This document shows positions 18,903-34,202 of a stretch of 64,000 nt of DNA, in pieces. The notes under the pieces were generated by a model. The model was not told the origin of the DNA. It worked only from the letters and a program-made list of their open reading frames with translations, and did no database searches. Origin of the DNA: the human T2T-CHM13v2.0 reference genome, Homo sapiens. How positions within the stretch are numbered: the first letter of the stretch is position 1; each line of letters begins with the position of its first letter. Both the position numbers and the translations under genes were made by a program. The stretch lies in assembly GCF_009914755.1 (NCBI RefSeq), contig NC_060935.1; one strand, written 5' to 3'.

Positions 18903-19403
18903 CTGTGTGTATATATATATACACACACCCAGTATATATGCACACATATATACACACACACATATATAATGTATATATATTATATAGCCATATAGTGTAT
19001 ACTCAGGGCAATATATATATACACTATATATATAACTTTCCATTTGACAAATGAACACATTTTCATTACTAGAGAAACAGGAAGCATTGCATACTGGGCA
19101 GAAAAAGAAAGAAAGAAATATTTGGGAAGTGGCTTTGTTGTTTCTTATATATAGGTATATGACATATATCTATATAGTGCCCTGTGCTGAGTATACACAC
19201 CCACCCACACACACCCACATACATACCACTACAACATATATAGTGATATATAAATATATAGTACATATATAGTACAATATATTATATATATTATAAATAT
19301 ATAGTACATATATGGCATATATGTATATAAATATATAGTACATATATAGTATATATGTGTATAAATATATAGTACATATATAATATATATGTGTGTATAT
19401 ATA
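18820..19403. repeat. Compound (TA)n/(TG)n/(CA)n microsatellite with embedded inverted copies of flanking DNA
   Basis: About 58 bp of pure (TA)n from 18820, then (GT)n; inverted insertions at 19036-19150 and 19171-19193; repeated aaatatatagtacatata units at ~19253-19381. Confidence 0.95.
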
Positions 19404-19419
19404 TGCTTGTTAATTATAA

Positions 19420-19625
19420 GAAAAATATTGTTACCCTCTGTGTTCACAGAGCACCTGTGCATGCCTACATCTTGGCATATATCACATTTATAGGAAGTTA
19501 TATTTGCTTTTGTGTCTCCTGCTTATGCTACAAGCTCTTTAAGATAGGTCTATCTTTAACTTACCTCTTATTTTCAGAAACTAGCTTGTGATAGACACTC
19601 AATAAACGTGGATTGAATGATTTAT
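19420..19625 (+). mobile_element. L2 3' end
   Basis: ...gatagacactcaataaacgtggattgaatga, the typical L2 tail. Confidence 0.55.
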
Positions 19626-20400
19626 TTGCTGAGTTAAACTACAAAAATGCATGAATTATCAATCTTTCCATGTCATTAGGGAGATTTGAGTAAGCATGAT
19701 CATTTTTTGGCAATTTACCAGCACTGATTATCCTTAAAGCTCCATTTAGATTTTTATTTTCACCCATTTGAGACAAGGGCCAAGGCCACACAGATGTAAA
19801 TTATTTAATTGAGTCATTAAACCAAATCCATGTTGTGGTCCAGTTGGCCCACATAAAGAAAAACGTAGAGCTTGGGAATATGATATGGCTTCACTTTTTT
19901 CCAAATTTATCTGAAAATGGCTAACTTTGAACATCCTTTGAATATTGTAGGGCTCATTAGAGAAGGGGAACAGTGAAGCCAAACTCTAGGAAGAACAAAA
20001 AGAGAATTATATAGAAATCTTAGAATACTTAAATGCCTCAAAAATTTTGAGGGTCTATCTCAAGTCTGGCCAGCTTTTATTATAGAAGATTGCTTTCATA
20101 TGGCCAGCCTGTTTGTTCTGTATGGGGATATGTCCCAAGAACTATCTAAGTTAGATACTTTTCTAGGTCAAGATAAGCCAGTACACAGTGCAAGTGGATT
20201 ATGGATGTTGCAGTATGATCTACTGCCTGAATTTCCAAGTCTTAGATGAAGGTAGTGATCTGGAGTGAATGAATGGATCATTCATTCAACACAAAAGGGT
20301 GTCCAGTAGGAACTGAGTCATTGGCCTGGGAAACTGGAATGGAGAACGGAATGGCCTGGGAATGGAGAATCCTCAGCTTTGTCTTTAGTAGTTAGATCTT

Positions 20401-20838
20401 TGTGATGGTTAATACCGAGTGGCACCTTGATTGGATTGAGCGATACGGAAGTATTAATCCTGGGTGTGTCCGCATGGGTGTTGCCAAAGGGGATTAACAT
20501 TTGAATCAGTGGGCTGGGGAAGGCAGATCCACCCTTAATCTGGTAGACACAATCTAATCAACTTCCAGTAAATATAAAGCAGGCAGAAAAATGTGAAAAT
20601 GAAAGATGGGCCTAGCCTCCCAGCCTACATCTTTCTCCAGTGCTGGATGCTTCCTGCCCTTGAACATCAGACTCCAAGTTCCTCAGTTTTGGGACTCAGA
20701 CTGGCTCTCCTTGCTCCTCAGCTTGCAGACAGCCTATTGTGGAACCTTGTGATCATGTAAGTTAATACTTAACAAATTCCCCTTCATATATATGCCTCCT
20801 GTTAGTTCTGTCCCTCTAAGAGAACCCTGACTAATACA
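20401..20838 (+). mobile_element. 5' LTR, MLT2A1-like (438 bp)
   Basis: tgtgatggttaatac...ttgattggattga...agaaccctgactaataca. Confidence 0.95.
20428..20776 (+). promoter_or_regulatory. LTR promoter motifs: double-homeobox-like CAATCYAATCA sites, TATA box, splice donor, mutated poly(A) signal
   Basis: tgattggattg 20428-20438; caatctaatca 20550-20560; tataaa 20573-20578; cat|gtaagt 20757-20762; AACAAA at 20771-20776 where the 3' LTR has AATAAA. Activity is inferred, not shown. Confidence 0.5.
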
Positions 20839-20843
20839 GATTT

Positions 20844-20861
20844 TGGTACCAGGAGTGGTTC
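20844..20861 (+). other. Primer binding site (tRNA-Leu)
   Basis: tggtaccaggagtggttc immediately after the 5' LTR, complementary to a tRNA-Leu 3' end as expected for ERV-L. Confidence 0.8.
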
Positions 20862-20929
20862 TAGAGGAACAGAATACTAAGGATAGAGTTCTTTCATTGG
20901 TTTTAGGGTTTCTGGAATTGGCTGCTTAA

Positions 20930-22662
20930 TATGATTGACCCAAAAATGCTAAGGACTCTACTTCTAATAGTATGCAGAACACTGATAGTCCTTGGCATGA
21001 ACTATGTAGAGAGTTATGTAAAATAAATGCATTTGACACTCGGGATTCACTGCTCATGAGAGGCAAGGAGTTTAGTGACTCTATGCATAATACCTTCGAC
21101 CATATGTGGAGAATCAAGGAACATAATCAACCTGGTTGGTTGCTCCTAAGTTCAGTGACAAAGTGATGAAAGAAAATGATGAACTCAGGGATTCTGTCTC
21201 CCAGTTTCAGAAGCAGATACTGAGCCTCAAATATGCTAAGATTGCCCTGAGTGAGAGTCTTATCTCCTGTAGAGAAACAGCTGAAATTGTGGAAGAAGAC
21301 ATAAGCTTTTATCATGCGAGTGGCTGACCTGCAATGAAAGGTGCATGCACAGCCTCAACAGGTGTCTACTGTTAAAGTGAGGGCATTGATTGGAAAAGAT
21401 TGGGATTCTGAAGCTTGCGAATGGGGATGTGTGGGAGGACCCTGATGAAGCTGGGGACACTGAGTTTGTAAAACCTGATGAAACTTTTTTGCCAGAAGGA
21501 ACAGCTTCCCCATCCCCAGTAATGGCAACATCCCCTCCCTTACCCATGCTACCATCAGCATTTCCACCTCTGTCTGAGGAGATAAACCCTGCGCTGCCTG
21601 AGGCAACAGTGATGGCCTCCCTTGAGGCAGTTGCCAGGCTAAATAATGTTGATTCTCCTCAGGAGCCACGCCAACACCCCTGTTTGCTTCTAGACTTATA
21701 ACTAGACTAAAGTCCCAAACAGGCCCCTGGAGGTGAGGTTGAGATTGTGACCCATGAGGAGGTACGCTACACTCAAAACGAACTGTTTGAGGTCTCTAAT
21801 TTATATAAACAGCAATCTGGAGCACAGGCACAGGAATGGATATTAAGGGTATGAAATGATATGAATATTATTCATATTCATTTCAAGGTATGAAATGAAA
21901 TGAATGGATATTAAGGTATAAGGGAAAGAACACAGAGTTGGATCAGGCTGAATTTATTGACTTGGGCCCACTAAGTAGGGACTCTGCATTTAATGTTGCA
22001 GCTTGGGGAGTTAAAAAAGGTTCTAATAGTTTGTTTGCTTGGTTAGCCGAAACAAAGATTATAAGATGGCCCACTGTGAGTGAGCTGGAAATGCCTGATC
22101 TCCCTTGGTTTAATGCAGAGGAAAGGATCCAAAGGCTTAGGGAGATTGGGATAGTGGAGTGGATTAGTCACTTTAGACCTACTCATCCCAGAGGGTTCAG
22201 AAGATATACCCTTGACCAATGCCTTGCGAAATAGATTTGTGAGGGCAGTACCTGCATCTTTGAAGAGCTCTGTAATTGCTCTTCTCTGTATGTCACATCT
22301 AAAGGTGAGAAATGCAGCCACTCAACTACAAAATTTAAATACAATGGGAATAATTGGATCCCAAGTGGCAGCACTTAACTATCAAAGTCAAGGTGGGCAT
22401 GACTACCATAATGGACAGCAGAGGCAGCAGCAATCAGAATAGTCTGACTCATGTAGAGCTCTGGCATTGGCTAATTAATCACAGTGTTCTCAGAAGTGAA
22501 ATTAATAAGAAGCCTACTACGTTCCTACTTAAATTGTACAAACAGAAAACTTCTAGGTTGAATGGAAAAAAGATTAATTTAAATTATAAAAACAGAGAAT
22601 CACAGCCCCTCAATCAATTTCCAAACTTGAGCCAGTTTACAGACCCAGAACTCCTTGAATGA
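20930..22662 (+). pseudogene. gag: HERV-L gag remnant (many stops and frameshifts)
   Basis: Fragments 'SPWHELCRELCKI', 'GDVWEDPDEAGD', 'DQAEFIDLGPLSRDS', 'ELWHWLINH'; lies between the PBS and the protease. Confidence 0.85.
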
Positions 22663-22680
22663 AGGGGAGGCCAGGTCCCC

Positions 22681-23853
22681 TTGAGGAAGGACCCTACTAC
22701 ATTACCAACAATTTATGCAGTGGATCTTTCTCCCATCCTTCCACAAGGAAACTTCCAACCTTTTACCAGGGTAATTGTGCACTGGGGAAAGGGAAATGAT
22801 CAAACATTTCAAGGACTACTGGACACTGGCTCTGAGCTGACATTGATTCCAGGGGACCCAAAACATCATTATGGTCCTCCAGTTAAAGTAGGGGCTTATG
22901 GGGGTCAGGTAATTAATGGAGTTTTAGCTCAGGTCTTACTTACAGTGGATCCCCAGACTCATCCTGTGATCATTTCCCTAGTGCCAGAATGCATAATTTG
23001 CATAGACATACTTAGCAGCTGGCAGAACCCCCACATTGGCTCCCTGACTGGCAGACTGAGGGCTACTATGGTGGGAAAGGCCAAATGGAAGCCATTGGAG
23101 CTACCTCTACCTAGAATAATTGTAAATCAAAAACAATATCGCATCCCTGGAGAGATTGAGGAGATTAGTGCCACCATCAAGGACTTGAAAGATGCAGGGG
23201 TGGTGATTCCCACATCCTCATTCAACTCCCTGATTTGGCCTGTACAGAATACAGATGGATCTTGGAGAATGACAGTGGATTATTGGAAGCTTAACCAAGC
23301 GGTGACTCCAATTGCAGCTGCTGTACTAGACATGGTTTCATTGCTTGAACAATTAACACATCTCCTGGTACCTGGTATGCAGCCATTGACTTAGCAAATG
23401 TTTTTACTCCATTCCTATCCATAAGGTCCGCCAGAAGCAATTTGCCCTCAGCAGCAAGGCCAGCAATGTATCTTTACTGTCCTACCTCAGGGGTATATCA
23501 ACTCTCCAGCTTTGTGTCATAATCTTATTCAGAGAGACCTGGGTCGCTTTTTGCTTCCACAAGATATCACACTGGTCCATTACATTGATGACGTTATGCT
23601 GATTGGATCCAGTGAGCAAGAAGTAGCAAACACACTGGACTTATTGGGGAGACATTTGCATGCCAGAGGATGGGAAATAAATCTGACTAAAATTCAGGGA
23701 TCTTCTAACTCAGTAAAATTTCTAGGAGTCCAGTGGTGTGGGGCCTGTCGAGATATTCTTTCTAAGGTAAAGGATAAGTGGTTGCATTTGGCCCCTCCTA
23801 CAACCAAGAAAGAGGCACAATGCCTAGTGGGCCTATTTGGATTTTGGAAGTAA
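22681..23853 (+). pseudogene. pol: HERV-L protease and reverse transcriptase remnant
   Basis: Aspartic protease LLDTGSE; RT N-terminal '[16 protein letters not shown]'; catalytic 'HYIDD'; 'VKFLG'; frameshift and stops between 23394 and 23512. Confidence 0.93.
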
Positions 23854-25667
23854 CATATTCCTCATTTGAGTTGTTACTCTGGCCCATTTTTTGAGTGGCC
23901 TGAAAGGCTGCCAGTTTTGAATGGGGTCTACAACAAGACAAGTTTCTGCAGCAGGTACAGGCTGCTGCGCAAGCTGCTCTGTCACTTTGGCCATATGACC
24001 AGCAGATCCATTGGTGCTTGAGGTGTCAGTGGCAGATAGGGATGCTGTTTGGAGCCTTTGACGGGCTCCCATAGGTGAATTGCAGCAGAGGCTTCTAGGA
24101 TTTTGGAGCAAGTTCCTGCCATCTTCTGCAGATTAACTACTCTCATTTTGAGAGACAGCTCTTGGCCTGTTACTGGGCTTTGGTGGAAACCGAATGCTTG
24201 ACTATGGGTCATCAAGTCACCATATGACCTGAACTGCCTATCATGAACCGGGTGCTTTCTAACCCATCTAGCCATAAAGTGGGTCATGCACAGCAGAATT
24301 CCATCATTAGATGGAAGTGGTATATATGCGATTGGGCTCAAGCAGGTACTGAAGGCACAAGTAAGTTACATGAGGAAGTGGCTCAAATGTCCATGGTCTC
24401 TACTCCTGCCACCACCCTGCCTTCTCTCCCCCAGCCTGTACTGATGGCCTCATGGGGAGTTCCCTGTGATCAGTTGACAGAGGAAAAGAAGACTAGGGCC
24501 TGGTTCACAGATGGTTCTGCATGATATGCAGGCACCACCCAAAAGTGGACAGCTGCAGCACTTCAGCCCCTTTCTAGGACATCCCTGAAGAACAGCAGTG
24601 AAGGGAAATCTTTCCAGTGGGCAGAACTTCAAGCAGTGCACCCAGTTGTGCACTTTGCATGGATGGAGAAATGGCCAGAAGTGCAATTATATACTGATTC
24701 ATGGGCTGTAGTCAATGGTTTGACTGGATGGTCTGGGACTTGGAAGAAGCATAATTGGAAAATTGGTGACCAAAAAAATTTGGGGAAAGGTTACCCAGAT
24801 GGACCTCTCTGAATGGCCAAAAACTGAAGATATTTGTATCCCATGTGAGTACTTAACCAACGGGTGACCTCAGCAGTGGAGGAGTTTAATAATCAAGTGG
24901 ATAGGATGACCCATTCTGTGGACACCACTCAGCCTCTTTCCCCAGCCACCCCTGTCATCACCCAATGGGCCCATGAACAAAGTGGCCATTATGGCAGGGA
25001 TGAAAGTTACACATGGGCTCAGAAACATGGACTTCCACTTACCAAGGCTGATCTGGCTGTGGTCACTACTGAGTGCCCAATTTGCCAGCAGAGAGACCAA
25101 CACAGAGACCTCAATATGGCACCATTCCTTGGGGTGATCAGCCAGCCACTTGGTGGTAGGTTGACTATATTGAACCTCTTCCATCATGGAAAGGGCAGAG
25201 GTTTGTCCTCACTGGAATAGACACCCCAGATATTGGTTTGTCTATCCTGCACACAATGCTTCTGCCAAGACTATCATCCATGGACTCACGTAATGCCTTA
25301 TCCACCATTACGGTATTCCACATAGTGTTGCCTCTGACCAAGGCACTCACTTTACAGGTAAAGAAGTGTGGCAGTGGGCTCATGCTCACTGAATTCACTG
25401 GTCTTACCATGTTCCCTATCATCCTGAAGCATCTGGATTGACAGAACAGTGGAATGGCCTTTTGAAGTCACAATTACAATGCCAACTAGGTGACAATACT
25501 TTGCAGGGCTGGGGCAAAGTTATCCAGAAGGCCATGTATGCTCCGAATCAGTGTCCAGTATATGGCACTGTTTCTCCCATAGCCAGGATTCGTGGGCCCA
25601 GGAATCAAAGCGGGGAAGGGAAAGTGGCACCACTCACCATCACCCCTAGTGAACCACTAGCAAAATT
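23854..25667 (+). pseudogene. pol: HERV-L RNase H and integrase remnant
   Basis: 'AWFTDGSA' (RNase H); HHCC zinc finger 'HEQSGH...CPIC'; gcctctgaccaaggcactcacttt (ASDQGTHF); 'EQWNGLLK'; multiple frameshifts. Confidence 0.9.
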
Positions 25668-26087
25668 TTGCATCCTGTGCCTGCAACATTATGTTCTGCT
25701 AGCCTAGAGGTCTTAGTTCCAGAGGGAGGAATGCTGCCACCAGGAGACACAACAATTATTCCATTAAACTGGAAGTTAAGATTGCCACCTGGACACTCTG
25801 GGCTCCTCCTACCTTTAAGTCAACAGGCTAAGAAGAAGGGAGATACAATGTTGGCTGGGGTGATTGACCTGTACTATGAAGATGAAATCAGTCTACTACT
25901 CCACAACAGAAGTAAAGAAGAGTATATGTGGAATACAGGAGATCCATTAGGGTGTCTCTTAGTATTACCATACCCTGTGATTAAAGTCAATGGGAAACTA
26001 CAACAGCACAATCCAGACAGGACTACAAATGACCCAGACCCTTCAGGAGTGAAGGTTTGGGTCACTCCACCAGGAAAAAAACCATGA
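25668..26087 (+). pseudogene. HERV-L dUTPase-like domain downstream of integrase
   Basis: 'LPPGDTTIIPLNWKLRLPPGHSGLL...AGVIDLYYEDEISLLLHN' is a degenerate trimeric dUTPase motif set; this position after IN is characteristic of ERV-L. Confidence 0.85.
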
Positions 26088-26496
26088 CCTGCTGAGGTGC
26101 TTGCTGAAGGTAAAGGGAATACAGAATGGGTAGTAGAAGAAGGTAGTAATCAATACCAGCTATAACCATGTGACCAGCTGCAGAAACAAGGACTGTAACT
26201 GTCATGAGTATTTCCTCCTTCTTTTGTTAAAAACATGTTTGTGCATGCATACACTTGTACTAAGAACATATCTTCATTTTATTTCCTTTTCCTTTATCAT
26301 GTGACATAAGATTTATTGACTTCATATCAGCATTGAAGTATTGTTAACTTTATGTAATAGTATTTAGGTTGGGGATTGGTATGTTTCTGGTTGTACAAAG
26401 GATAGTTGTATTATGTTAGGTGTAACTATGACCTCATTATTGTCTTTATTTGAAGACTATGTATGATCTCAGGAGATGTGTATGGGTTCAAGATGA

Positions 26497-26509
26497 CAAG
26501 GGGTGGACT
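26497..26509 (+). other. Polypurine tract
   Basis: caaggggtggact immediately before the 3' LTR tgtg. Confidence 0.75.
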
Positions 26510-26879
26510 TGTGATAGTTAATACTGAGTGTCAACTTGATTGGATTGAGGGATACAGAAGTATTAATCCTGGGTGTGTCTTTGTGGGTGTTGCCAAAGGA
26601 GAATAACATTTGAGTCAGTGGGCCGGGGAAGGCAGACCCACCCTTAATCTGGTGCACACAATCCAATCAGCTTCTAGCAAATATAAAGCAGGCAGCAAAA
26701 TGTGAAAAGGCAAGACAGGCCTAGCCTCCTAGCTTACATCTTTCTCCTGCTGGATGCTTCCTGAACATCAGACTCCAAATTCTTCAGTTTTGGGACATGG
26801 ACTGGCTCTCTTTGTTCCTCAGCTTTCAGATGGCCTATTGTGGGACCTTGTGATCATGTAAATTAATACTTAATAAACT

Positions 26880-26928
<49 letters not shown>

Positions 26929-27060
26929 CACACACACACTTTATATATAAATATGTTAATACTTAATAAACTCCCAATAGATATATGTTAATACTTTATA
27001 TATATATGTTAATACTTAATAAACTCCCTATATATATATCCCGATTCCCTACATATATCC

Positions 27061-27096
<36 letters not shown>

Positions 27097-27150
27097 GGAT
27101 ATATATAGGGAGTTTATTAAGTGTATATATATATATGTGTGTGTGTGTGT

Positions 27151-30100
27151 ATATATACATAAGTGTATATACATAAGTGTATATATAAACATAAGTGTAT
27201 ATACATAAGTGCATATATAAACATAAGTGTATATACATAAGTGCATATATATACATAAGTGTATATACATAAGTGCATATATACATAAGTGTATATACAT
27301 AAGTGCGTATATATACATAAGTGTATATACATAAGTGCGTATATATACATAAGTGTATATACATAAGTGCGTATATATACATAAGTGTATATACATAAGT
27401 GCGTATATATACATAAGTGTATATACATAAGTGCGTATATATACATAAGTGTATATACATAAGTGTATATACATAAGTGCGTATATATACATAAGTGTAT
27501 ATACATAAGTGCGTATATATACATAAGTGTATATACATAAGTGCGTATATATACATAAGTGTATATATAAGTGCGTATATATACATAAGTGTATATATAT
27601 AAGTGCGTATATATACATAAGTGTATATATATATAAGTGTGTATATATACATAAGTGTATATAAATAAGTGTGTATATATACATAAGTGTATATATATAA
27701 GTGTGTATATATACATAAGTGTATATATATAAGTGTGTATATATACATAAGTGTATATATATAAGTGTGTATATATACATAAGTGTATATATATAAGTGT
27801 GTATATATACATAAGTGTATATATATAAGTGTGTATATATACATAAGTGTATATATATAAGTGTGTATATATACATAAGTGTATATATATAAGTGTGTAT
27901 ATATACATAAGTGTATATATATAAGTGTGTATATATACATAAGTGTATATAAAGTGTGTATATATACATAAGTGTACATATATACATAAGTGTACATATA
28001 TACATAAGTGTATATATATACATAAGTGTATATATACATAAGTGTATATATATACATAAGTGTATATATACATAAGTGTATATATATACATAAGTGTATA
28101 TATATAAGTGTATATATATACATAAGTGTATATATATAAGTGTATATATATACATAAGTGTATATATATACATAAGTGTATATATATAAGTGTATATATA
28201 TACATAAGTGTATATATATGTGTATATATATACATAAGTGTATATATATAAGTGTATATATATACATAAGTGTATATATATCAGTGTATATATATACATA
28301 AGTGTATATATATAAGTGTATATATATACATAAGTGTATATATATACATAAGTGTATATATATAAGTGTATATATATACATAAGTGTATATATATAAGTG
28401 TATATATATACATAAGTGTATATATATAAGTGTATATATATACATAAGTGTATATATACATAAGTGTATATATATAAGTGTATATATATACATAAGTGTA
28501 TATATATAAGTGTATATATATACATAAGTGTATATATATAAGTGTATATATATACATAAGTGTATATATATAAGTGTATATATACATAAGTGTATATATA
28601 TAAGTGTATATATATACATAAGTGTATATATATATAAGTGTATATATATACATAAGTGTATATATATATAAGTGTATATATATACATAAGTGTATATATA
28701 TATAAGTGTATATATATACATAAGTGTATATATATATAAGTGTATATATATACATAAGTGTATATATATATAAGTGTATATATATACATAAGTGTATATA
28801 TATATAAGTGTATATATATACATAAGTGTATATATATATAAGTGTATATATATACATAAGTGTATATATATATAAGTGTATATATATACATAAGTGTATA
28901 TATATATAAGTGTATATATATACATAAGTGTATATATATACGTAAGTGTATATATATATAAGTGTATATATATACGTAAGTGTATATATAAGTGTATATA
29001 TATACGTAAGTGTATATATAAGTGTATATATATACGTAAGTGTATATATAAGTGTATATATATACGTAAGTGTATATATAAGTGTATATATATACGTAAG
29101 TGTGTATATATAAGTGTATATATATACGTAAGTGTATGTATACAAGTGTATATATATACGTAAGTGTATGTATACAAGTGTACATATATACGTAAGTGTA
29201 TGTATACAAGTGTACATATATACGTAAGTGTATATACATAAGTGTACATATATACGTAAGTGTATATACATAAGTGTACATATATACGTAAGTGTATATA
29301 TATATAAGTGTATATATATACGTAAGTGTATATATATAAGTGTATATATATACGTAAGTGTATATATACATAAGTGTATATATATAAGTGTATATATATA
29401 CATAAGTGTATATATATATAAGTGTATATATATACATAAGTGTATATATACATAAGTGTATATATATACATAAGTGTATATATACATAAGTGTATATATA
29501 TACATAAGTGTATATATACATAAGTGTATATATATACAAGTGTATATATATACATAAGTGTATATATATACAAGTGTATATATATACATAAGTGTATATA
29601 TATATAAGTGTATATATATACATAAGTGTATATATATAAGTGTATATATATACATAAGTGTATATATATATAAGTGTATATATATACATAAGTGTATATA
29701 TATATAAGTGTATATATATACATAAGTGTATATATATAAGTGTATATATATACATAAGTGTATATATAAGTGTATATATATACATAAGTGTATATATAAG
29801 TGTATATATATACATAAGTGTATATACATAAGTGTATATATATAAGTGTATATATATACATAAGTGTATATATATAAGTGTATATATATACATAAGTGTA
29901 TATATATAAGTGTATATATATACATAAGTGTATATATATAAGTGTATATATATACATAAGTGTATATATATAAGTGTATATATATACATAAGTGTATATA
30001 TATAAGTGTATATATATACATAAGTGTATATATATAAGTGTATATATATACATAAGTGTATATATATAAGTGTATATATATACATAAGTGTATATATATA

Positions 30101-31180
30101 AGTGTATATATATACATAAGTGTATATATATAAGTGTATATATATACATAAGTGTATATATATACATAAGTGTATATATATACATAAGTGTATATATATA
30201 AGTGTATATATATACATAAGTGTATATATATATAAGTGTATATATATACATAAGTGTATATATATAAGTGTATATATATACATAAGTGTATATATATAAG
30301 TGTATATATATACATAAGTGTATATATATATAAGTGTATATATATACATAAGTGTATATATATATAAGTGTATATATATACATAAGTGTATATATATATA
30401 AGTGTATATATATACATAAGTGTATATATATAAGTGTATATATATACATAAGTGTATATATATAAGTGTATATATATACATAAGTGTATATATATAAGTG
30501 TATATACATAAGTGTATATATATAAGTGTATATATATACATAAGTGTATATATATAAGTGTATATATATACATAAGTGTATATATATAAGTGTATATATA
30601 TACATAAGTGTATATATATAAGTGTATATATATACATAAGTGTGTATATAAGTGTATATATATACATAAGTGTGTATATATAAGTGTATATATATACATA
30701 AGTGTGTATATATAAGTGTATATATATACATAAGTGTATATATATAAGTGTATATATATACATAAGTGTATATACATAAGTGTATATATATACATAAGTG
30801 TATATACATAAGTGTATACATATAAGTGTATATATATACATAAGTGTATACATATAAGTGTATATATATACATAAGTGTATACATATAAGTGTATATATA
30901 TACATAAGTGTATACATATAAGTGTATATATATACATAAGTGTATACATATAAGTGTATATATATACATAAGTGTATACATATAAGTGTATATATATACA
31001 TAAGTGTATACATATAAGTGTATATATATACATAAGTGTATATATATAAGTGTATATATATACATAAGTGTATATATATAAGTGTATATATATACATAAG
31101 TGTATATATATAAGTGTATATATATACATAAGTGTATATATAAGTGTATATATATATAAGTGTATATATATAAGTGTATA
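27151..31180. repeat. ~4 kb minisatellite of AAGTG(TA)n[CA]T monomers, often a 14+18 = 32-bp dimer
   Basis: More than 200 monomers anchored on taagtg; variants are clustered in blocks. Confidence 0.97.
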
Positions 31181-31195
31181 TATATGTGTATATAT

Positions 31196-32118
31196 ATACA
31201 CTTAATAAACTCAATAAAACTAAATAAAAGATATATATATCGGGATATATATATCTCCTATATATATATATCGGGATATATATATCTCTGATATATATAT
31301 ATATCGGGATATATATATCTCTGATATATATATATCTCTTATATATATAAATCTCTGATATATATATCTCTTATATATATAATATATATCTCTGATATAT
31401 ATATCTCTTATATATATAATATATATCTCTGATATATATATCTCTTATATATATAATATATATCTCCCTCCTATATATATATAGGAGATATATATATCTC
31501 TGATATATATATCTCCTATATATAATATATATCTCCTATATATATTATATATATCTCCTATATATATAATAGATATCTCCTATATATATTATATATATAT
31601 ATCCTATATATATTATATAGAGATTATACATATATTGGGATATATGTTAATACTTTATGTATATATGTTAATACTTAATAAACTCCCTATATATATCCCA
31701 ATATATATATCCCTATATTAAGTATATATACTTATATTAGTATATATATACTTATATTAAGTATATATACTTATATTAGTATATATATACTTATATTAAG
31801 TATATATATATACTTAATATATATACTATATATAATATATAATATTTAGTTTAAGTATATATATACTTATATTAAGTATATATATACACTTATATTAGGT
31901 ATAGATATACTTATATTAACTATATATATACTTAATAAACTATTATATACTTAATAAACTAAATAAACTAAAGATATATATATATCTGGATATACATATC
32001 TCATATATATAGATCTCCTATATATATATAATATATAGATCTCCTATATATATATAATATATAGATCTCCTATATATATATAATATATATCTCTCCTATA
32101 TATATATAATATATATCT
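31196..32118. repeat. Patchwork of short AT-rich sub-arrays and palindromes made from LTR junction words
   Basis: Repeated atatcgggat, atctctgatat, ctcctatatata, aagtatatatactt and cttaataaact. Confidence 0.9.
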
Positions 32119-33726
32119 CTCCTATTAATTCTGTCCCTTTAAGAGAACCCTGCCTAATACAATCTTCTACCTTGGCTGCCTCTCTTCCAAATCCACAGTG
32201 CTTGCTGGAATGAAGGCACCACAGAGGAAGCCTCCTTCGTTGAGTCCCTGCTCATTGCTGGACAGCAAGCTCTGCCCAGACCCCTCCGTAAAGGAGGGTT
32301 TAATCTTCTTTGCCCCATATATTTCATGCTTGTTTCCCCTATCTTCCTCTCACATTATCTCAATAGTAAAATGGTCAGTGCTCCACACACAAACTGATCT
32401 GATAACATTTAGTTGAAATGATTAAATTTAGCAAAATATTGGAGTAAAATTATTTAGTTCTGTGATACTATGTGGTTGGATCAAAATGATTTTCATTTCT
32501 TTGCTTAGTTCTGTTTTTCTACAGTATCAGGTTACTTAACTCTATCTTGTCAAATATCAGATTTGGGAATGTCAGGATAATAAAAGCAAGTTTTATTATT
32601 TCAAGATGGATATTTGGCGTTGTGTAGTCATAGCTTATCTGAGATAATATTTTAAGGATTAATATTGGAGCAGAACTAGAAGAAAGACATAGTTATTTAG
32701 CATACATGTGACATTTATGTCAAACAAGCATGGATTGAAATAAACCAATTTAATTTCCAAAAGCCCATTGCATTTAGCAGAAAATTTTGCATAATGCATG
32801 TAAACCTGTGCCATTGCCCCATAAGTCAAACTCTTCAAATTACTACTGGAGATTTCAATTCAACCCAAGCAAATGCATAGTATATATGTGCTTATATATA
32901 TGTAAAAATCTGAAGCCTCTGAGACAAAAGTCTTAAGACAATGTAGCAGGTGTCAATTTTTTACCAAGATAATGATGAGAACCCTAAATCAGAATGTTAC
33001 ATACTTAAAACCAATTTGTTTCAGTGGCATATACTCAAGTGTCAAGTATCAAATGCTTATTCAAAGAGAGACCTCATATGTCAGGTTTGTGCAAGACTGT
33101 TTCTGTTTATTTTCTTCCTTTAAGTATGCTCTTGTATCCCAAAGTATTTTCTTAAGGCTGAAATTTAGCCATCTGTGGTACAGGAACACAGGACTGGGAA
33201 GAACTTGACCCAGTTCCTTCAGGGATTACTTCTTGAACTCCTGAAAACTGTATTTAAAGTGGCTTACAAATGGCTGAGAATTCTTGCTTGATATTTTAAA
33301 ACCTATGATGGGAATCAGTTTTGGCTTTGAAACCAGGACTTAAGAGTATTAACACTAGGTCCTTCTTCTTAATCACAAGGCAAAAACTGCATGTAAATTT
33401 GGTACAACAATGATCGGCCACTTGGAATAAAACTCAAGATGCTGGAAAACATTGATTAGCCTTGAATACCATGTTAAAGGTAGAGTCTTGTTAAGTATAC
33501 CTACCAATACAGAGCCCTGTAATAGTACCAAACTGTTAAAAGGTAGAGGTGACCATAGAGCCCTCCTCCGTATGGGGAGCTCTGTTACTCTTGGGGTATG
33601 GCGTATTATAGTGACTACTGGGTTTCCTTATCAGGAAACTTTGGGTGAAATTTGGCTCTGCCTATATTTGAATCTCAAGCAAGTTACCTTGAGGAGTCAA
33701 CAACTCTGAGGCTTAATGAACTAAGA

Positions 33727-34202
33727 CAGTGATTCTCAAACTTTTCTGTCTCAGGATTCCTTTATACTCACAAAGTTAGTGAGGACCCCAAAGAACCTTT
33801 GTTTATGTACATTGTATCTGTTGATATTTTCCACATTAGACATTAAAACTGAACATTTAAAAATATGTATTCATTTAAAAATAACAATAAACCCACCGTA
33901 GACTAACATAAAATATATTTTTATGGAAAAATAACTATATTTTGCAAAAATATTAGAGAGGAGCATTGTTTCACATTTCTGCAAATTTCTTTAGTGTTTA
34001 ACAGAAGGCAGCTAGAGTTAAGACTGCATTCAATCTGTACTGATATCGTACTTCATGTAGCCTCAGGTAAACACTGCATACTTGAGAGAATGGAAGTGAA
34101 AAAGGCACTCATTTTAGTATCACTATGAAAATTGTTTTCACCTCATGGACTGCCTAAAAAAGGGACCACCAGGGGTCCCCACTCCACACTTTGAGAACTA
34201 CT
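33727..34202. mobile_element. Charlie4a-like hAT DNA transposon
   Basis: TIRs cagtgattctcaaa...tttgagaactact; internal gaggaccccaaagaacctttgtttatgt. Confidence 0.8.

What the first reader, a model, noticed from the sequence alone, without database searches (positions are those of the whole stretch)
26882..32118. A ~5.2 kb satellite born inside a retroviral LTR, with the twin LTR as an unexpanded reference
Seen: in the 5' LTR only about 15 bp (cccttcatatatatg) separate 'atacttaacaaattc' from 'cctcctgttagttctgtccc'. In the 3' LTR the same two junctions (26866-26881 and 32119 onward) are ~5.2 kb apart, while the LTR terminus and ATCTT TSD remain intact. Established: the two LTRs are identical at integration. 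Inference: the array arose in situ after integration, seeded by the LTR's (TA)n tract rather than by an insertion, because it has no TSD of its own and no foreign element. The array's internal homogeneity contrasts with ~11% LTR-LTR divergence, suggesting the expansion is much younger than the provirus and may be a polymorphic VNTR. This is an unusually clean record of satellite birth from an ERV.
Basis: partly seen in the sequence, partly recalled or inferred. Interest (0 to 1): 0.8.

Follow-up and report, generated by a model that had tools for sequence, protein, structure and literature searches.

The report
AT-rich minisatellite grown inside an ERV-L LTR
A short TA run near the end of one LTR of an old endogenous retrovirus has grown on the spot into a 5.2 kb AT-rich tandem array built from the LTR's own bordering sequence, and other copies of this LTR family show smaller growths at the same place.

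Summary
An ERV-L-type provirus (20401-32161) has a 5-bp ATCTT target duplication on both sides. In the 5' LTR, 25 bp separate ...AAATTCC from TTCTGTCCC. In the 3' LTR the same two points are 5,247 bp apart.

The filling is 82% A+T and holds no foreign element. Its non-TA motifs trace to the LTR's two junctions: seven direct copies (the resident one included) and one inverted copy of the left junction, and 11 direct copies of the right one. It is a composite, not one homogeneous satellite. The 4 kb core has 248 units of 12-18 bp in dimer blocks. Perfect 24-nt inverted copies of a left-junction derivative bracket the core, beside a 119-nt hairpin-forming palindrome. The core unit occurs nowhere else in T2T-CHM13.

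The site is a recurrent growth point. In 85 measurable copies of the LTR family the same interval exceeds 100 bp in 24 and 1 kb in 3, often with inverted junction copies. The best explanation is in-situ growth by slippage or unequal exchange plus TA-hairpin fold-back. Polymorphism, age and assembly accuracy were not testable here.

The parts
20396..20400 (+). Left copy of the 5-bp target-site duplication ATCTT
   Evidence: Read directly. Matches 32162-32166.
20401..20838 (+). 5' LTR (TGTG...TACA) with the unexpanded TA tract: 25 bp between ...AAATTCC and TTCTGTCCC
20844..20859 (+). Primer-binding-site-like TGGTACCAGGAGTGGT, 5 nt after the 5' LTR
   Evidence: Read. The assignment to tRNA-Leu is recalled and was not tested.
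20839..26509 (+). Degenerate ERV-L-type interior: RT 23425-23850, RNase H 24525-24809, weak integrase zinc domain 24849-25217, dUTPase 25653-26084, all in broken frames
   Evidence: 27 stop-to-stop frames of 70 aa or more. (Pfam: RVT_1 2.4e-17, RNase_H 6.8e-09, Integrase_H2C2 0.0011 which is below its cut-off, dUTPase 1.8e-09).
26510..26881 (+). 3' LTR, part left of the array, ending ...AAATTAATACTTAATAAACTCC
26882..26941 (.). (TA)n tract, 23.5 AT units by TRF (26882-26928), running into a CATA(CA)n stretch
26942..27061 (+). Direct duplications of the LTR left junction: GTTAATAC starts at 26955, 26987 (partial copy) and 27008. Followed by ATCCCGAT units.
27008..27126 (.). Quasi-palindrome centred near 27078: left junction + ATCCCGAT + (AT)n + ATCGGGAT + inverted left junction GGGAGTTTATTAAGT
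   Evidence: gapless arm of 42 nt. (DNA hairpin -34 kcal/mol, z = -8.6, 0 of 200 shuffles fold as well). (the single inverted copy, at 27111).
27110..27133 (-). Left boundary of the core, GAGTTTATTAAGTGTATATATATA, a perfect inverted copy of 31189-31212
   Evidence: 24 of 24 identities.
27119..31172 (+). Core array: 248 units between AAGTG anchors (18 nt x119, 14 nt x84, 16 nt x32, 12 nt x9, four others), 25 variants, organised as 30-34-bp dimers, all in one orientation (G 549 against C 182)
   Evidence: (unit i equals unit i+2 in 168 of 245 cases, unit i equals unit i+1 in 6 of 246, perfect dimer runs of up to 10 copies). (82 of 82 genome matches lie here).
31189..31212 (+). Right boundary of the core, TATATATATACACTTAATAAACTC. 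This is the left-junction derivative back in direct orientation and marks the second orientation switch.
31235..31625 (+). 22/37-bp units mixing ATCGGGAT (inverted form of ATCCCGAT) with right-junction-derived TATCTCCTAT and TATCTCTGATA. Includes a small palindrome, CTCCTAT...ATAGGAG, at about 31468-31487.
31639..31730 (+). Second copy of block 26980-27079 (left-junction duplications), 4.66 kb from the first and in direct orientation
   Evidence: 86 identities, 6 mismatches, 8 gap columns.
31715..31975 (+). 20/39-bp units CTTATATTAAGTATATATA, then short left-junction fragments (CTTAATAAACT at 31931 and 31950)
32005..32125 (+). 26-bp units (4.7 copies, 97% matches). The last copy is the true right junction ...TCTCTCCT|ATTAATTCTGTCCC.
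32119..32161 (+). 3' LTR, part right of the array, ending ...CCTAATACA
32162..32166 (+). Right copy of the target-site duplication ATCTT

Best explanation
An ERV-L-type provirus integrated with two identical LTRs. Each LTR carried the family's short TA tract between ...TTAATAAACTCC(C) and (A)TCTCCTATTAGTTCTGTCCC. In the 3' LTR this self-complementary tract became unstable.

Shown: slippage or unequal exchange lengthened the tract and duplicated it together with a few dozen bases of either flank, so LTR junction motifs now lie scattered through the array.

Inferred: at least twice, a TA hairpin or fold-back (template switch at a stalled fork, or hairpin-primed repair) copied the left flank in inverted orientation.

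Shown as structure, inferred as derivation: the boundary between that inverted flank and the TA run (..ATTAAGTG-TATATATA..) became the 14-18-nt unit. Amplified as 30-34-bp dimers, it now makes up 4 kb.

The result is an intergenic, locus-private, composite AT-rich minisatellite with no evident function. It is a by-product of a structure-prone microsatellite that every copy of this LTR family carries, and the same position has grown repeatedly elsewhere in the genome.
For: - Junctions, target duplication and twin-LTR reference.
- No foreign sequence: only 1 of the overlapping 40-nt windows, stepped every 10 nt across the array, reaches 35% G+C, and it is junction-derived.
- LTR-derived motifs inside the array: CTTAATAAACT occurs 7 times direct (the resident junction included) and once inverted within 26800-32200, and 0 times in the rest of the 64 kb. 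CTCCTAT occurs 11 times direct and once inverted.
- Fold-back: a 119-nt hairpin at -34 kcal/mol, z = -8.6, and perfect 24-nt inverted boundaries of the core.
- Local amplification: unit i equals unit i+2 in 168 of 245 cases, with perfect dimer runs of up to 10 copies. CpG-bearing variants (units F, G and K) are repeated 10, 10 and 4 times.
- Private core: the 26-mer with up to 1 mismatch matches 82 places genome-wide, all within this array and all on the + strand, with 0 control matches. In one search all matches at 84% or more are self-matches and the best elsewhere is 78%.
- Recurrence: the left-junction 20-mer has 1,263 places against 2 for the control. Of the first 100 exact places, 85 were measurable. 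Their interval is 40 bp or less in 43, 41-100 bp in 18, 101-300 bp in 16, 301-1000 bp in 5 and over 1 kb in 3 (1077, 1138 and 2179 bp).
- A further locus on chr2 has 3.86 kb of AT array between 89-nt inverted arms that are 87/89 identical.
- Inverted left-junction copies lie inside arrays at L026, L047, L073 and L098 (reversed and complemented control motifs: 0 hits), and at L017. Inverted right-junction copies lie at L027, L065, L082, L087 and L104.
Against: - No second human haplotype, ape orthologue or sequencing read was available. The array's true length, age and polymorphism are therefore untested, and an assembly length error cannot be excluded.
- Deriving the core unit from the inverted junction rests on position and a 12-of-13 match (TTAAGTGTATATA against ATAAGTGTATATA), not on intermediates.
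- The order of events is inferred.
- Gapped alignments of palindrome arms in such AT-rich DNA are noisy. The gapless scan found only one centre with arms of 40 nt or more.
- I ran no matched control of TA tracts outside this LTR family. 'Hot spot' may only reflect the general instability of TA repeats.
- One of the five GGAGTTTAT hits (L024) was a chance hit in unrelated DNA.
- The control for the inverted right-junction motif (reversed AGGATAAT) hit 6 times in L082, so short AT-rich motifs are weak evidence on their own.
Confidence: 0.85

Rival explanations
1. Plain microsatellite or minisatellite growth by slippage and unequal sister-chromatid exchange only. On this view the inverted motifs are chance products of a self-complementary AT-rich sequence, and no fold-back is involved.
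For: TA-rich sequence is nearly its own reverse complement, so both strands of other AT arrays match the core at 70-78%. The gapless palindrome scan finds only one centre. Gapped arm alignments are noisy.
Against: The inverted copies contain G/C-bearing, LTR-specific strings. GGGAGTTTATTAAGT occurs at 27109-27123, and the 24-nt inverted boundaries are perfect. AGTTTATTAAG or its complement occurs nowhere else in the window. The same inverted junction recurs at independent loci, with 0 hits for reversed or complemented controls. At chr2 the arms are 89 nt long and 97.8% identical.
Confidence: 0.1
2. The array, or its core, was copied in from a pre-existing AT-rich array elsewhere, by gene conversion, ectopic repair or insertion.
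For: Many AT-rich arrays elsewhere match at 70-78% over 400 nt. Two of eight fetched loci contain AAGTGTATATA (L012 6 times, L014 25 times).
Against: CATAAGTG occurs in 0 of the 8 fetched loci; its reverse complement CACTTATG occurs once, in 1 of 8 (L010). All 82 matches to the 26-nt core unit lie in this array. The array's edges grade into LTR junction copies. There is no target duplication or foreign flank.
Confidence: 0.03
3. Assembly artefact: the true allele is much shorter or differently arranged, and the 5.2 kb is a mis-assembled low-complexity stretch.
For: Long AT-rich arrays are hard to sequence and assemble. No reads could be examined here.
Against: The array has an ordered, non-periodic succession of variant blocks and unique internal landmarks, which is not what collapse or over-expansion of one unit gives. 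Comparable arrays sit at the same LTR position at four other loci in the assembly.
Confidence: 0.05

Closest known systems
TE-derived tandem repeats and minisatellites in the human genome (Ahmed & Liang 2012, PMC3389668; passages read)
   Same: A tandem array initiated inside a transposable element and expanded by local duplication of units. Certain element positions act as hot spots.
   Different: That survey required units of 20 bp or more and G+C of 40% or more, so arrays like this one (12-18-bp units, 18% G+C) were excluded by design. Its hot spots were in AluS and LTR12. My word search of its main text found no mention of ERVL. Its 8 hits for words beginning 'mlt' include the authors' own term 'mlTRs'; not all 8 hits were displayed and its supplementary tables were not opened.
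AT-rich minisatellites of rare fragile sites FRA16B and FRA10B (PMC2875025; passages read)
   Same: A highly AT-rich minisatellite whose strands form stable secondary structures. It grows from a few copies to large arrays.
   Different: FRA16B has a 33-bp unit, 7-12 copies normally and up to about 2000 copies in expressing chromosomes. Here the units are 12-18 bp (dimers of 30-34 bp), the array is 5.2 kb, no cytogenetic fragility is known and the array was seeded by an LTR. Membership was not tested.
Palindromic AT-rich repeats (PATRRs) of recurrent translocation breakpoints (recalled; only search listings seen)
   Same: AT-rich DNA containing inverted duplications around a TA-rich centre that can extrude hairpins or cruciforms.
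   Different: PATRRs are near-perfect palindromes of several hundred bases. Here the only compact palindrome is 119 nt with a 21-nt bulge, and the other inverted pair (24 nt) lies 4 kb apart. This is not a PATRR. The chr2:126.33 Mb relative (89-nt arms, 3.86 kb spacer) is not one either.
ERV-L (class III) proviruses with MLT2-type LTRs
   Same: Paired TG...CA LTRs, a 5-bp target duplication, RT, RNase H, integrase, and a dUTPase after integrase.

Membership tests
ERV-L-type provirus | Two LTRs in direct orientation, TG...CA ends, flanked by a short target-site duplication | tested here: met
   LTRs at 20401-20838 and at 26510-26881 plus 32119-32161. ATCTT on both sides.
ERV-L-type provirus | pol with RT, RNase H and integrase, and a dUTPase domain downstream of integrase (the placement as an ERV-L hallmark is recalled) | tested here: met
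   RVT_1 2.4e-17, RNase_H 6.8e-09, dUTPase 1.8e-09. Integrase_H2C2 reached only 0.0011, below its cut-off.
ERV-L-type provirus | Primer-binding site complementary to tRNA-Leu | not tested
   TGGTACCAGGAGTGGT lies 5 nt after the 5' LTR. It was not compared with a tRNA sequence.
MLT2A LTR subfamily | Best match to the MLT2A consensus in a curated repeat library | not testable with these tools
   No repeat library was available. The left-junction 20-mer has 1,263 places in the genome, which shows a large LTR family but does not name it.
Minisatellite / VNTR | Head-to-tail array of units of about 10-100 bp | tested here: met
   248 core units of 12-18 nt, and further domains of 20-39-bp units.
Minisatellite / VNTR | Copy number variable among individuals | not testable with these tools
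   Only one human assembly was available.
Satellite DNA | Very long arrays (tens of kb to Mb), usually at several loci or heterochromatic | tested here: not met
   5.2 kb at a single locus, with the unit private to it.
PATRR | Near-perfect AT-rich palindrome of several hundred bases with adjacent arms | tested here: not met
   The gapless scan found one centre with 42-nt arms and 8 mismatches. The hairpin is 119 nt.
Fragile-site AT-rich minisatellite (FRA16B-like) | Expanded alleles associated with cytogenetic fragility | not testable with these tools
   Composition and hairpin potential are similar. No cytogenetic data were available.

The most novel reading that the evidence does not exclude
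The TA tract in the 3' part of this ERV-L LTR family (over 1,200 copies) is a genome-wide, family-specific nursery of AT-rich minisatellites and inverted (fold-back) duplications. From the sample, roughly a quarter of copies have grown past 100 bp and a few per cent past 1 kb. That would make an old LTR family a dispersed source of hairpin-forming, potentially fragile and highly polymorphic loci. This provirus would then be the one case where the twin LTR preserves the starting state, so each step of array birth can be read off.
Probability: 0.45. Interest if true: 0.6.

Novelty: new member of a known kind. Interest (0 to 1): 0.45.

Why it matters
Tandem arrays born from transposable elements are well documented. 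AT-rich, short-unit arrays were filtered out of the survey I read, and they are only fully visible in telomere-to-telomere assemblies.

This locus offers an internal control, the twin LTR. It shows that the whole 5.2 kb was built from about 60 bp of the LTR's own sequence, through both direct and inverted duplication.

The family-wide recurrence suggests that where large AT-rich arrays sit is partly predetermined by where one old LTR family landed. AT-rich arrays of this kind are candidates for replication barriers, cruciforms and structural polymorphism. Recurrence is testable in pangenome and ape T2T data.

No gene function is implied. The array lies about 9 kb beyond the 3' end of MIR100HG.

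Tried and rejected
- Rfam scan of 19000-34000 found 0 families, so there is no structured RNA reading.
- The repeat finder returned only overlapping 300-nt families of the array and was uninformative. It was replaced by my own decomposition.
- The gapless palindrome scan found only the centre at 27078. Gapped arm alignments around 27078, 31192 and 31480 were too noisy in TA-rich DNA to define long arms, so I rely on G/C-bearing motifs and the exact 24-nt pair instead.
- First right-junction finder: the fuzzy match missed diverged junctions and mis-placed some. It was redone with local alignment. Four distances were set by eye or from a longer fetch: L017, L038, L075 and L089.
The survey of the roughly 31 remaining array loci was therefore not done, and the figure of 1 in 8 arrays lying in this LTR family rests on 8 loci only.
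None listed a paper on an ERV-L/MLT2 LTR TA-tract hot spot or on this locus. The population tandem-repeat preprint 10.1101/2024.08.07.607105 has no occurrence of 'LTR', 'transposable', 'inverted' or 'hairpin' in its main text. Its supplements are closed and might list this locus.
Full report
**1. Observation**

The window holds a provirus whose 5' LTR runs from 20401 to 20838 (TGTG...TACA). ATCTT precedes it at 20396-20400, and a primer-binding-site-like TGGTACCAGGAGTGGT follows at 20844-20859. The 3' LTR starts at 26510. It aligns with the 5' LTR up to ...TTAATAAACTCC at 26881, resumes at 32119 (CTCCTATTAATTCTGTCCC...) and ends ...AATACA at 32161, followed by ATCTT.

BLAST gives 394 columns at 86.3% identity (45 mismatches, 3 gap openings) and 53 columns at 88.7% (6 mismatches).

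The interval from the end of AAA[T/C]TCC to TTCTGTCCC is 25 bp in the 5' LTR and 5,247 bp in the 3' LTR.

The interior encodes broken RT, RNase H and dUTPase domains plus a weak integrase zinc-domain match. A dUTPase after integrase is, from recall, the ERV-L arrangement. The subfamily name MLT2A could not be checked.

**2. Anatomy of the array**

The 5,237 bp are 82.4% A+T. Only one of the overlapping 40-nt windows, stepped every 10 nt, reaches 35% G+C, and it is junction-derived. There is no foreign element.

The array is a composite. From left to right:

- a (TA) tract of 23.5 AT units by TRF, running into (CA)n (26882-26941);
- direct duplications of the LTR's left junction, GTTAATACTTAATAAACTCCC, with ATCCCGAT units (26942-27061);
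- a quasi-palindrome centred at 27078 whose right arm is the left junction inverted (GGGAGTTTATTAAGT). As single-stranded DNA it folds at -34 kcal/mol, z = -8.6, and 0 of 200 shuffles fold as well;
- a 4 kb core (27119-31172) of 248 units between AAGTG anchors. There are 25 variants, 119 of 18 nt and 84 of 14 nt, arranged as dimers. Unit i equals unit i+2 in 168 of 245 cases, against 6 of 246 for neighbouring units. Perfect dimer runs reach 10 copies;
- a second orientation switch at about 31190;
- 22/37-bp units combining ATCGGGAT with right-junction-derived TATCTCCTAT (31235-31625);
- a second copy of the 26980-27079 block at 31639-31730, with 86 identities, 6 mismatches and 8 gap columns;
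- 20/39-bp CTTATATTAAGTATATATA units, then left-junction fragments (31715-31975);
- 26-bp units whose last copy is the true right junction (32005-32125).

The two boundaries of the core, 27110-27133 and 31189-31212, are a perfect 24-nt inverted repeat of a left-junction derivative, CACTTAATAAACTC + TA.

The 11-mer CTTAATAAACT occurs 7 times direct (the resident junction included) and once inverted within 26800-32200, and nowhere else in the 64 kb. CTCCTAT occurs 11 times direct and once inverted there.

**3. Origin**

All informative motifs trace to about 60 bp of the LTR itself. The core's 26-nt unit, allowing up to 1 mismatch, matches 82 places in the 3.1 Gb assembly. All 82 are in this array and on the + strand, with 0 control matches.

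A 401-nt core query finds only self-matches at 84% or more. The best match elsewhere is 78%, typically on both strands, which is generic AT-array similarity. CATAAGTG occurs in none of 8 fetched best non-self loci; its reverse complement occurs once, in one of them.

In-situ origin is well supported.

**4. Timing**

Perfect dimer runs, together with repeated CpG-bearing variants, show recent local amplification.

The first steps are not necessarily young. The three full internal junction copies read GTTAATAC...CTCCC. That agrees with the 5' LTR and with the family-wide 20-mer, while the resident junction now reads AATTAATAC...CTCC|AT. So the duplications predate at least one substitution in the resident copy.

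Homogeneity measures turnover, not age. Only orthologous loci can date the array.

**5. Recurrence**

The left-junction 20-mer has 1,263 places with up to 1 mismatch, against 2 for the control. I fetched the first 100 exact places, on chr1-3, in genomic order.

Fifteen were dropped, leaving 85 measurable:

- five have an Alu in the tract (L040, L041, L042, L044, L112). The first four lie between chr1 120.9 and 148.8 Mb and carry the same Alu insert, so I take them to be copies of one event;
- one is the inner copy of a duplicated junction (L029);
- nine are rearranged or truncated (L024, L026, L064, L073, L076, L077, L091, L104, L106).

| Interval in the 85 measurable copies | Copies |
|---|---|
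| 40 bp or less | 43 |
| 41-100 bp | 18 |
| 101-300 bp | 16 |
| 301-1000 bp | 5 |
| over 1 kb (1077, 1138, 2179 bp) | 3 |

The median is 40 bp. The 2179-bp value needed a longer fetch.

Among the dropped loci, chr2:126,328,543-126,332,5xx has 3.86 kb of AT array between an 89-nt partial LTR copy and the LTR itself in inverted orientation. The arms are 87/89 identical, against about 85% identity between different copies of the family. L026 has a ~235-bp array followed by the whole LTR inverted.

Inverted left-junction strings (GGAGTTTAT) lie inside arrays at L026, L047, L073 and L098, and at L017. A fifth hit (L024) was chance. Reversed and complemented controls gave 0 hits.

Inverted right-junction strings lie at L027, L065, L082, L087 and L104. 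For these the short control motif also hit L082, so that evidence is weaker, except where a long inverted LTR end is visible, as in L082.

One of the 8 best non-self array loci (chr1:174.585 Mb) sits at exactly this LTR position and has an inverted left junction.

The window's 5.2 kb is the largest case I saw.

**6. Mechanism**

Shown:
- growth in place;
- duplication of flank plus tract;
- two orientation switches marked by exact inverted copies;
- block-wise dimer amplification;
- recurrence at other copies of the family.

Inferred:
- the self-complementary TA tract forms hairpins that promote both slippage or unequal exchange and fold-back template switching;
- the core unit was born at the junction of the inverted flank with the TA run;
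- the order of events.

I ran no matched control of TA tracts outside the family.

**7. Comparison and verdict**

This is a TE-seeded, AT-rich composite minisatellite. It is not a satellite (5.2 kb, one locus) and not a PATRR. It resembles the FRA16B/FRA10B class in composition and structure-forming potential.

The TE-derived tandem-repeat survey I read excluded such arrays by its G+C and unit-length filters. Seven searches that returned listings showed no paper on this LTR hot spot. A library search cannot prove absence, and closed supplements may list the locus.

The locus is a real and unusually legible example of a known process. The family-wide recurrence with fold-back signatures is the part most worth following up.

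Noticed in passing
window 19236-19404: A separate AT-rich tandem repeat (periods 34 and 77, 2-4.6 copies) about 1 kb upstream of the provirus, outside any LTR.
   Followed up: no
L076+L117+L077 (chr2:126,328,158-126,332,958 of the assembly): 3.86 kb AT-rich composite array lying between an 89-nt inverted partial LTR copy and the LTR itself. The arms are 87/89 identical. More TA repeat lies upstream of the partial copy, and the LTR's right junction was not located.
   Followed up: partly
L118+L017 (chr1:6,264,838-6,270,807): 2.18 kb array, 92-100% A+T in 100-nt windows (mostly 96-100%), at the same LTR position. An inverted left-junction copy sits about 100 bp before the intact right junction.
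   Followed up: partly
L040, L041, L042, L044 (chr1 120.9-148.8 Mb) and L112 (chr3:41.33 Mb): Alu elements are inserted exactly at the LTR's TA tract. The four chr1 loci carry the same insert and look like copies of one event spread by segmental duplication.
   Followed up: no
L016 (chr5:119,049,500-119,055,500): A ~1.1 kb TATATACTGTGTG-type array lies 1.2 kb from a related LTR but not inside it. That LTR's own TA interval is only modestly expanded and carries an extra insert.
   Followed up: no
L013 1691-2960 (chr1:174.585 Mb): The 1.1 kb array at this LTR contains a ~170-nt non-repetitive stretch (about 2190-2360 in locus coordinates) of unknown origin between two TA/CA-rich blocks.
   Followed up: no
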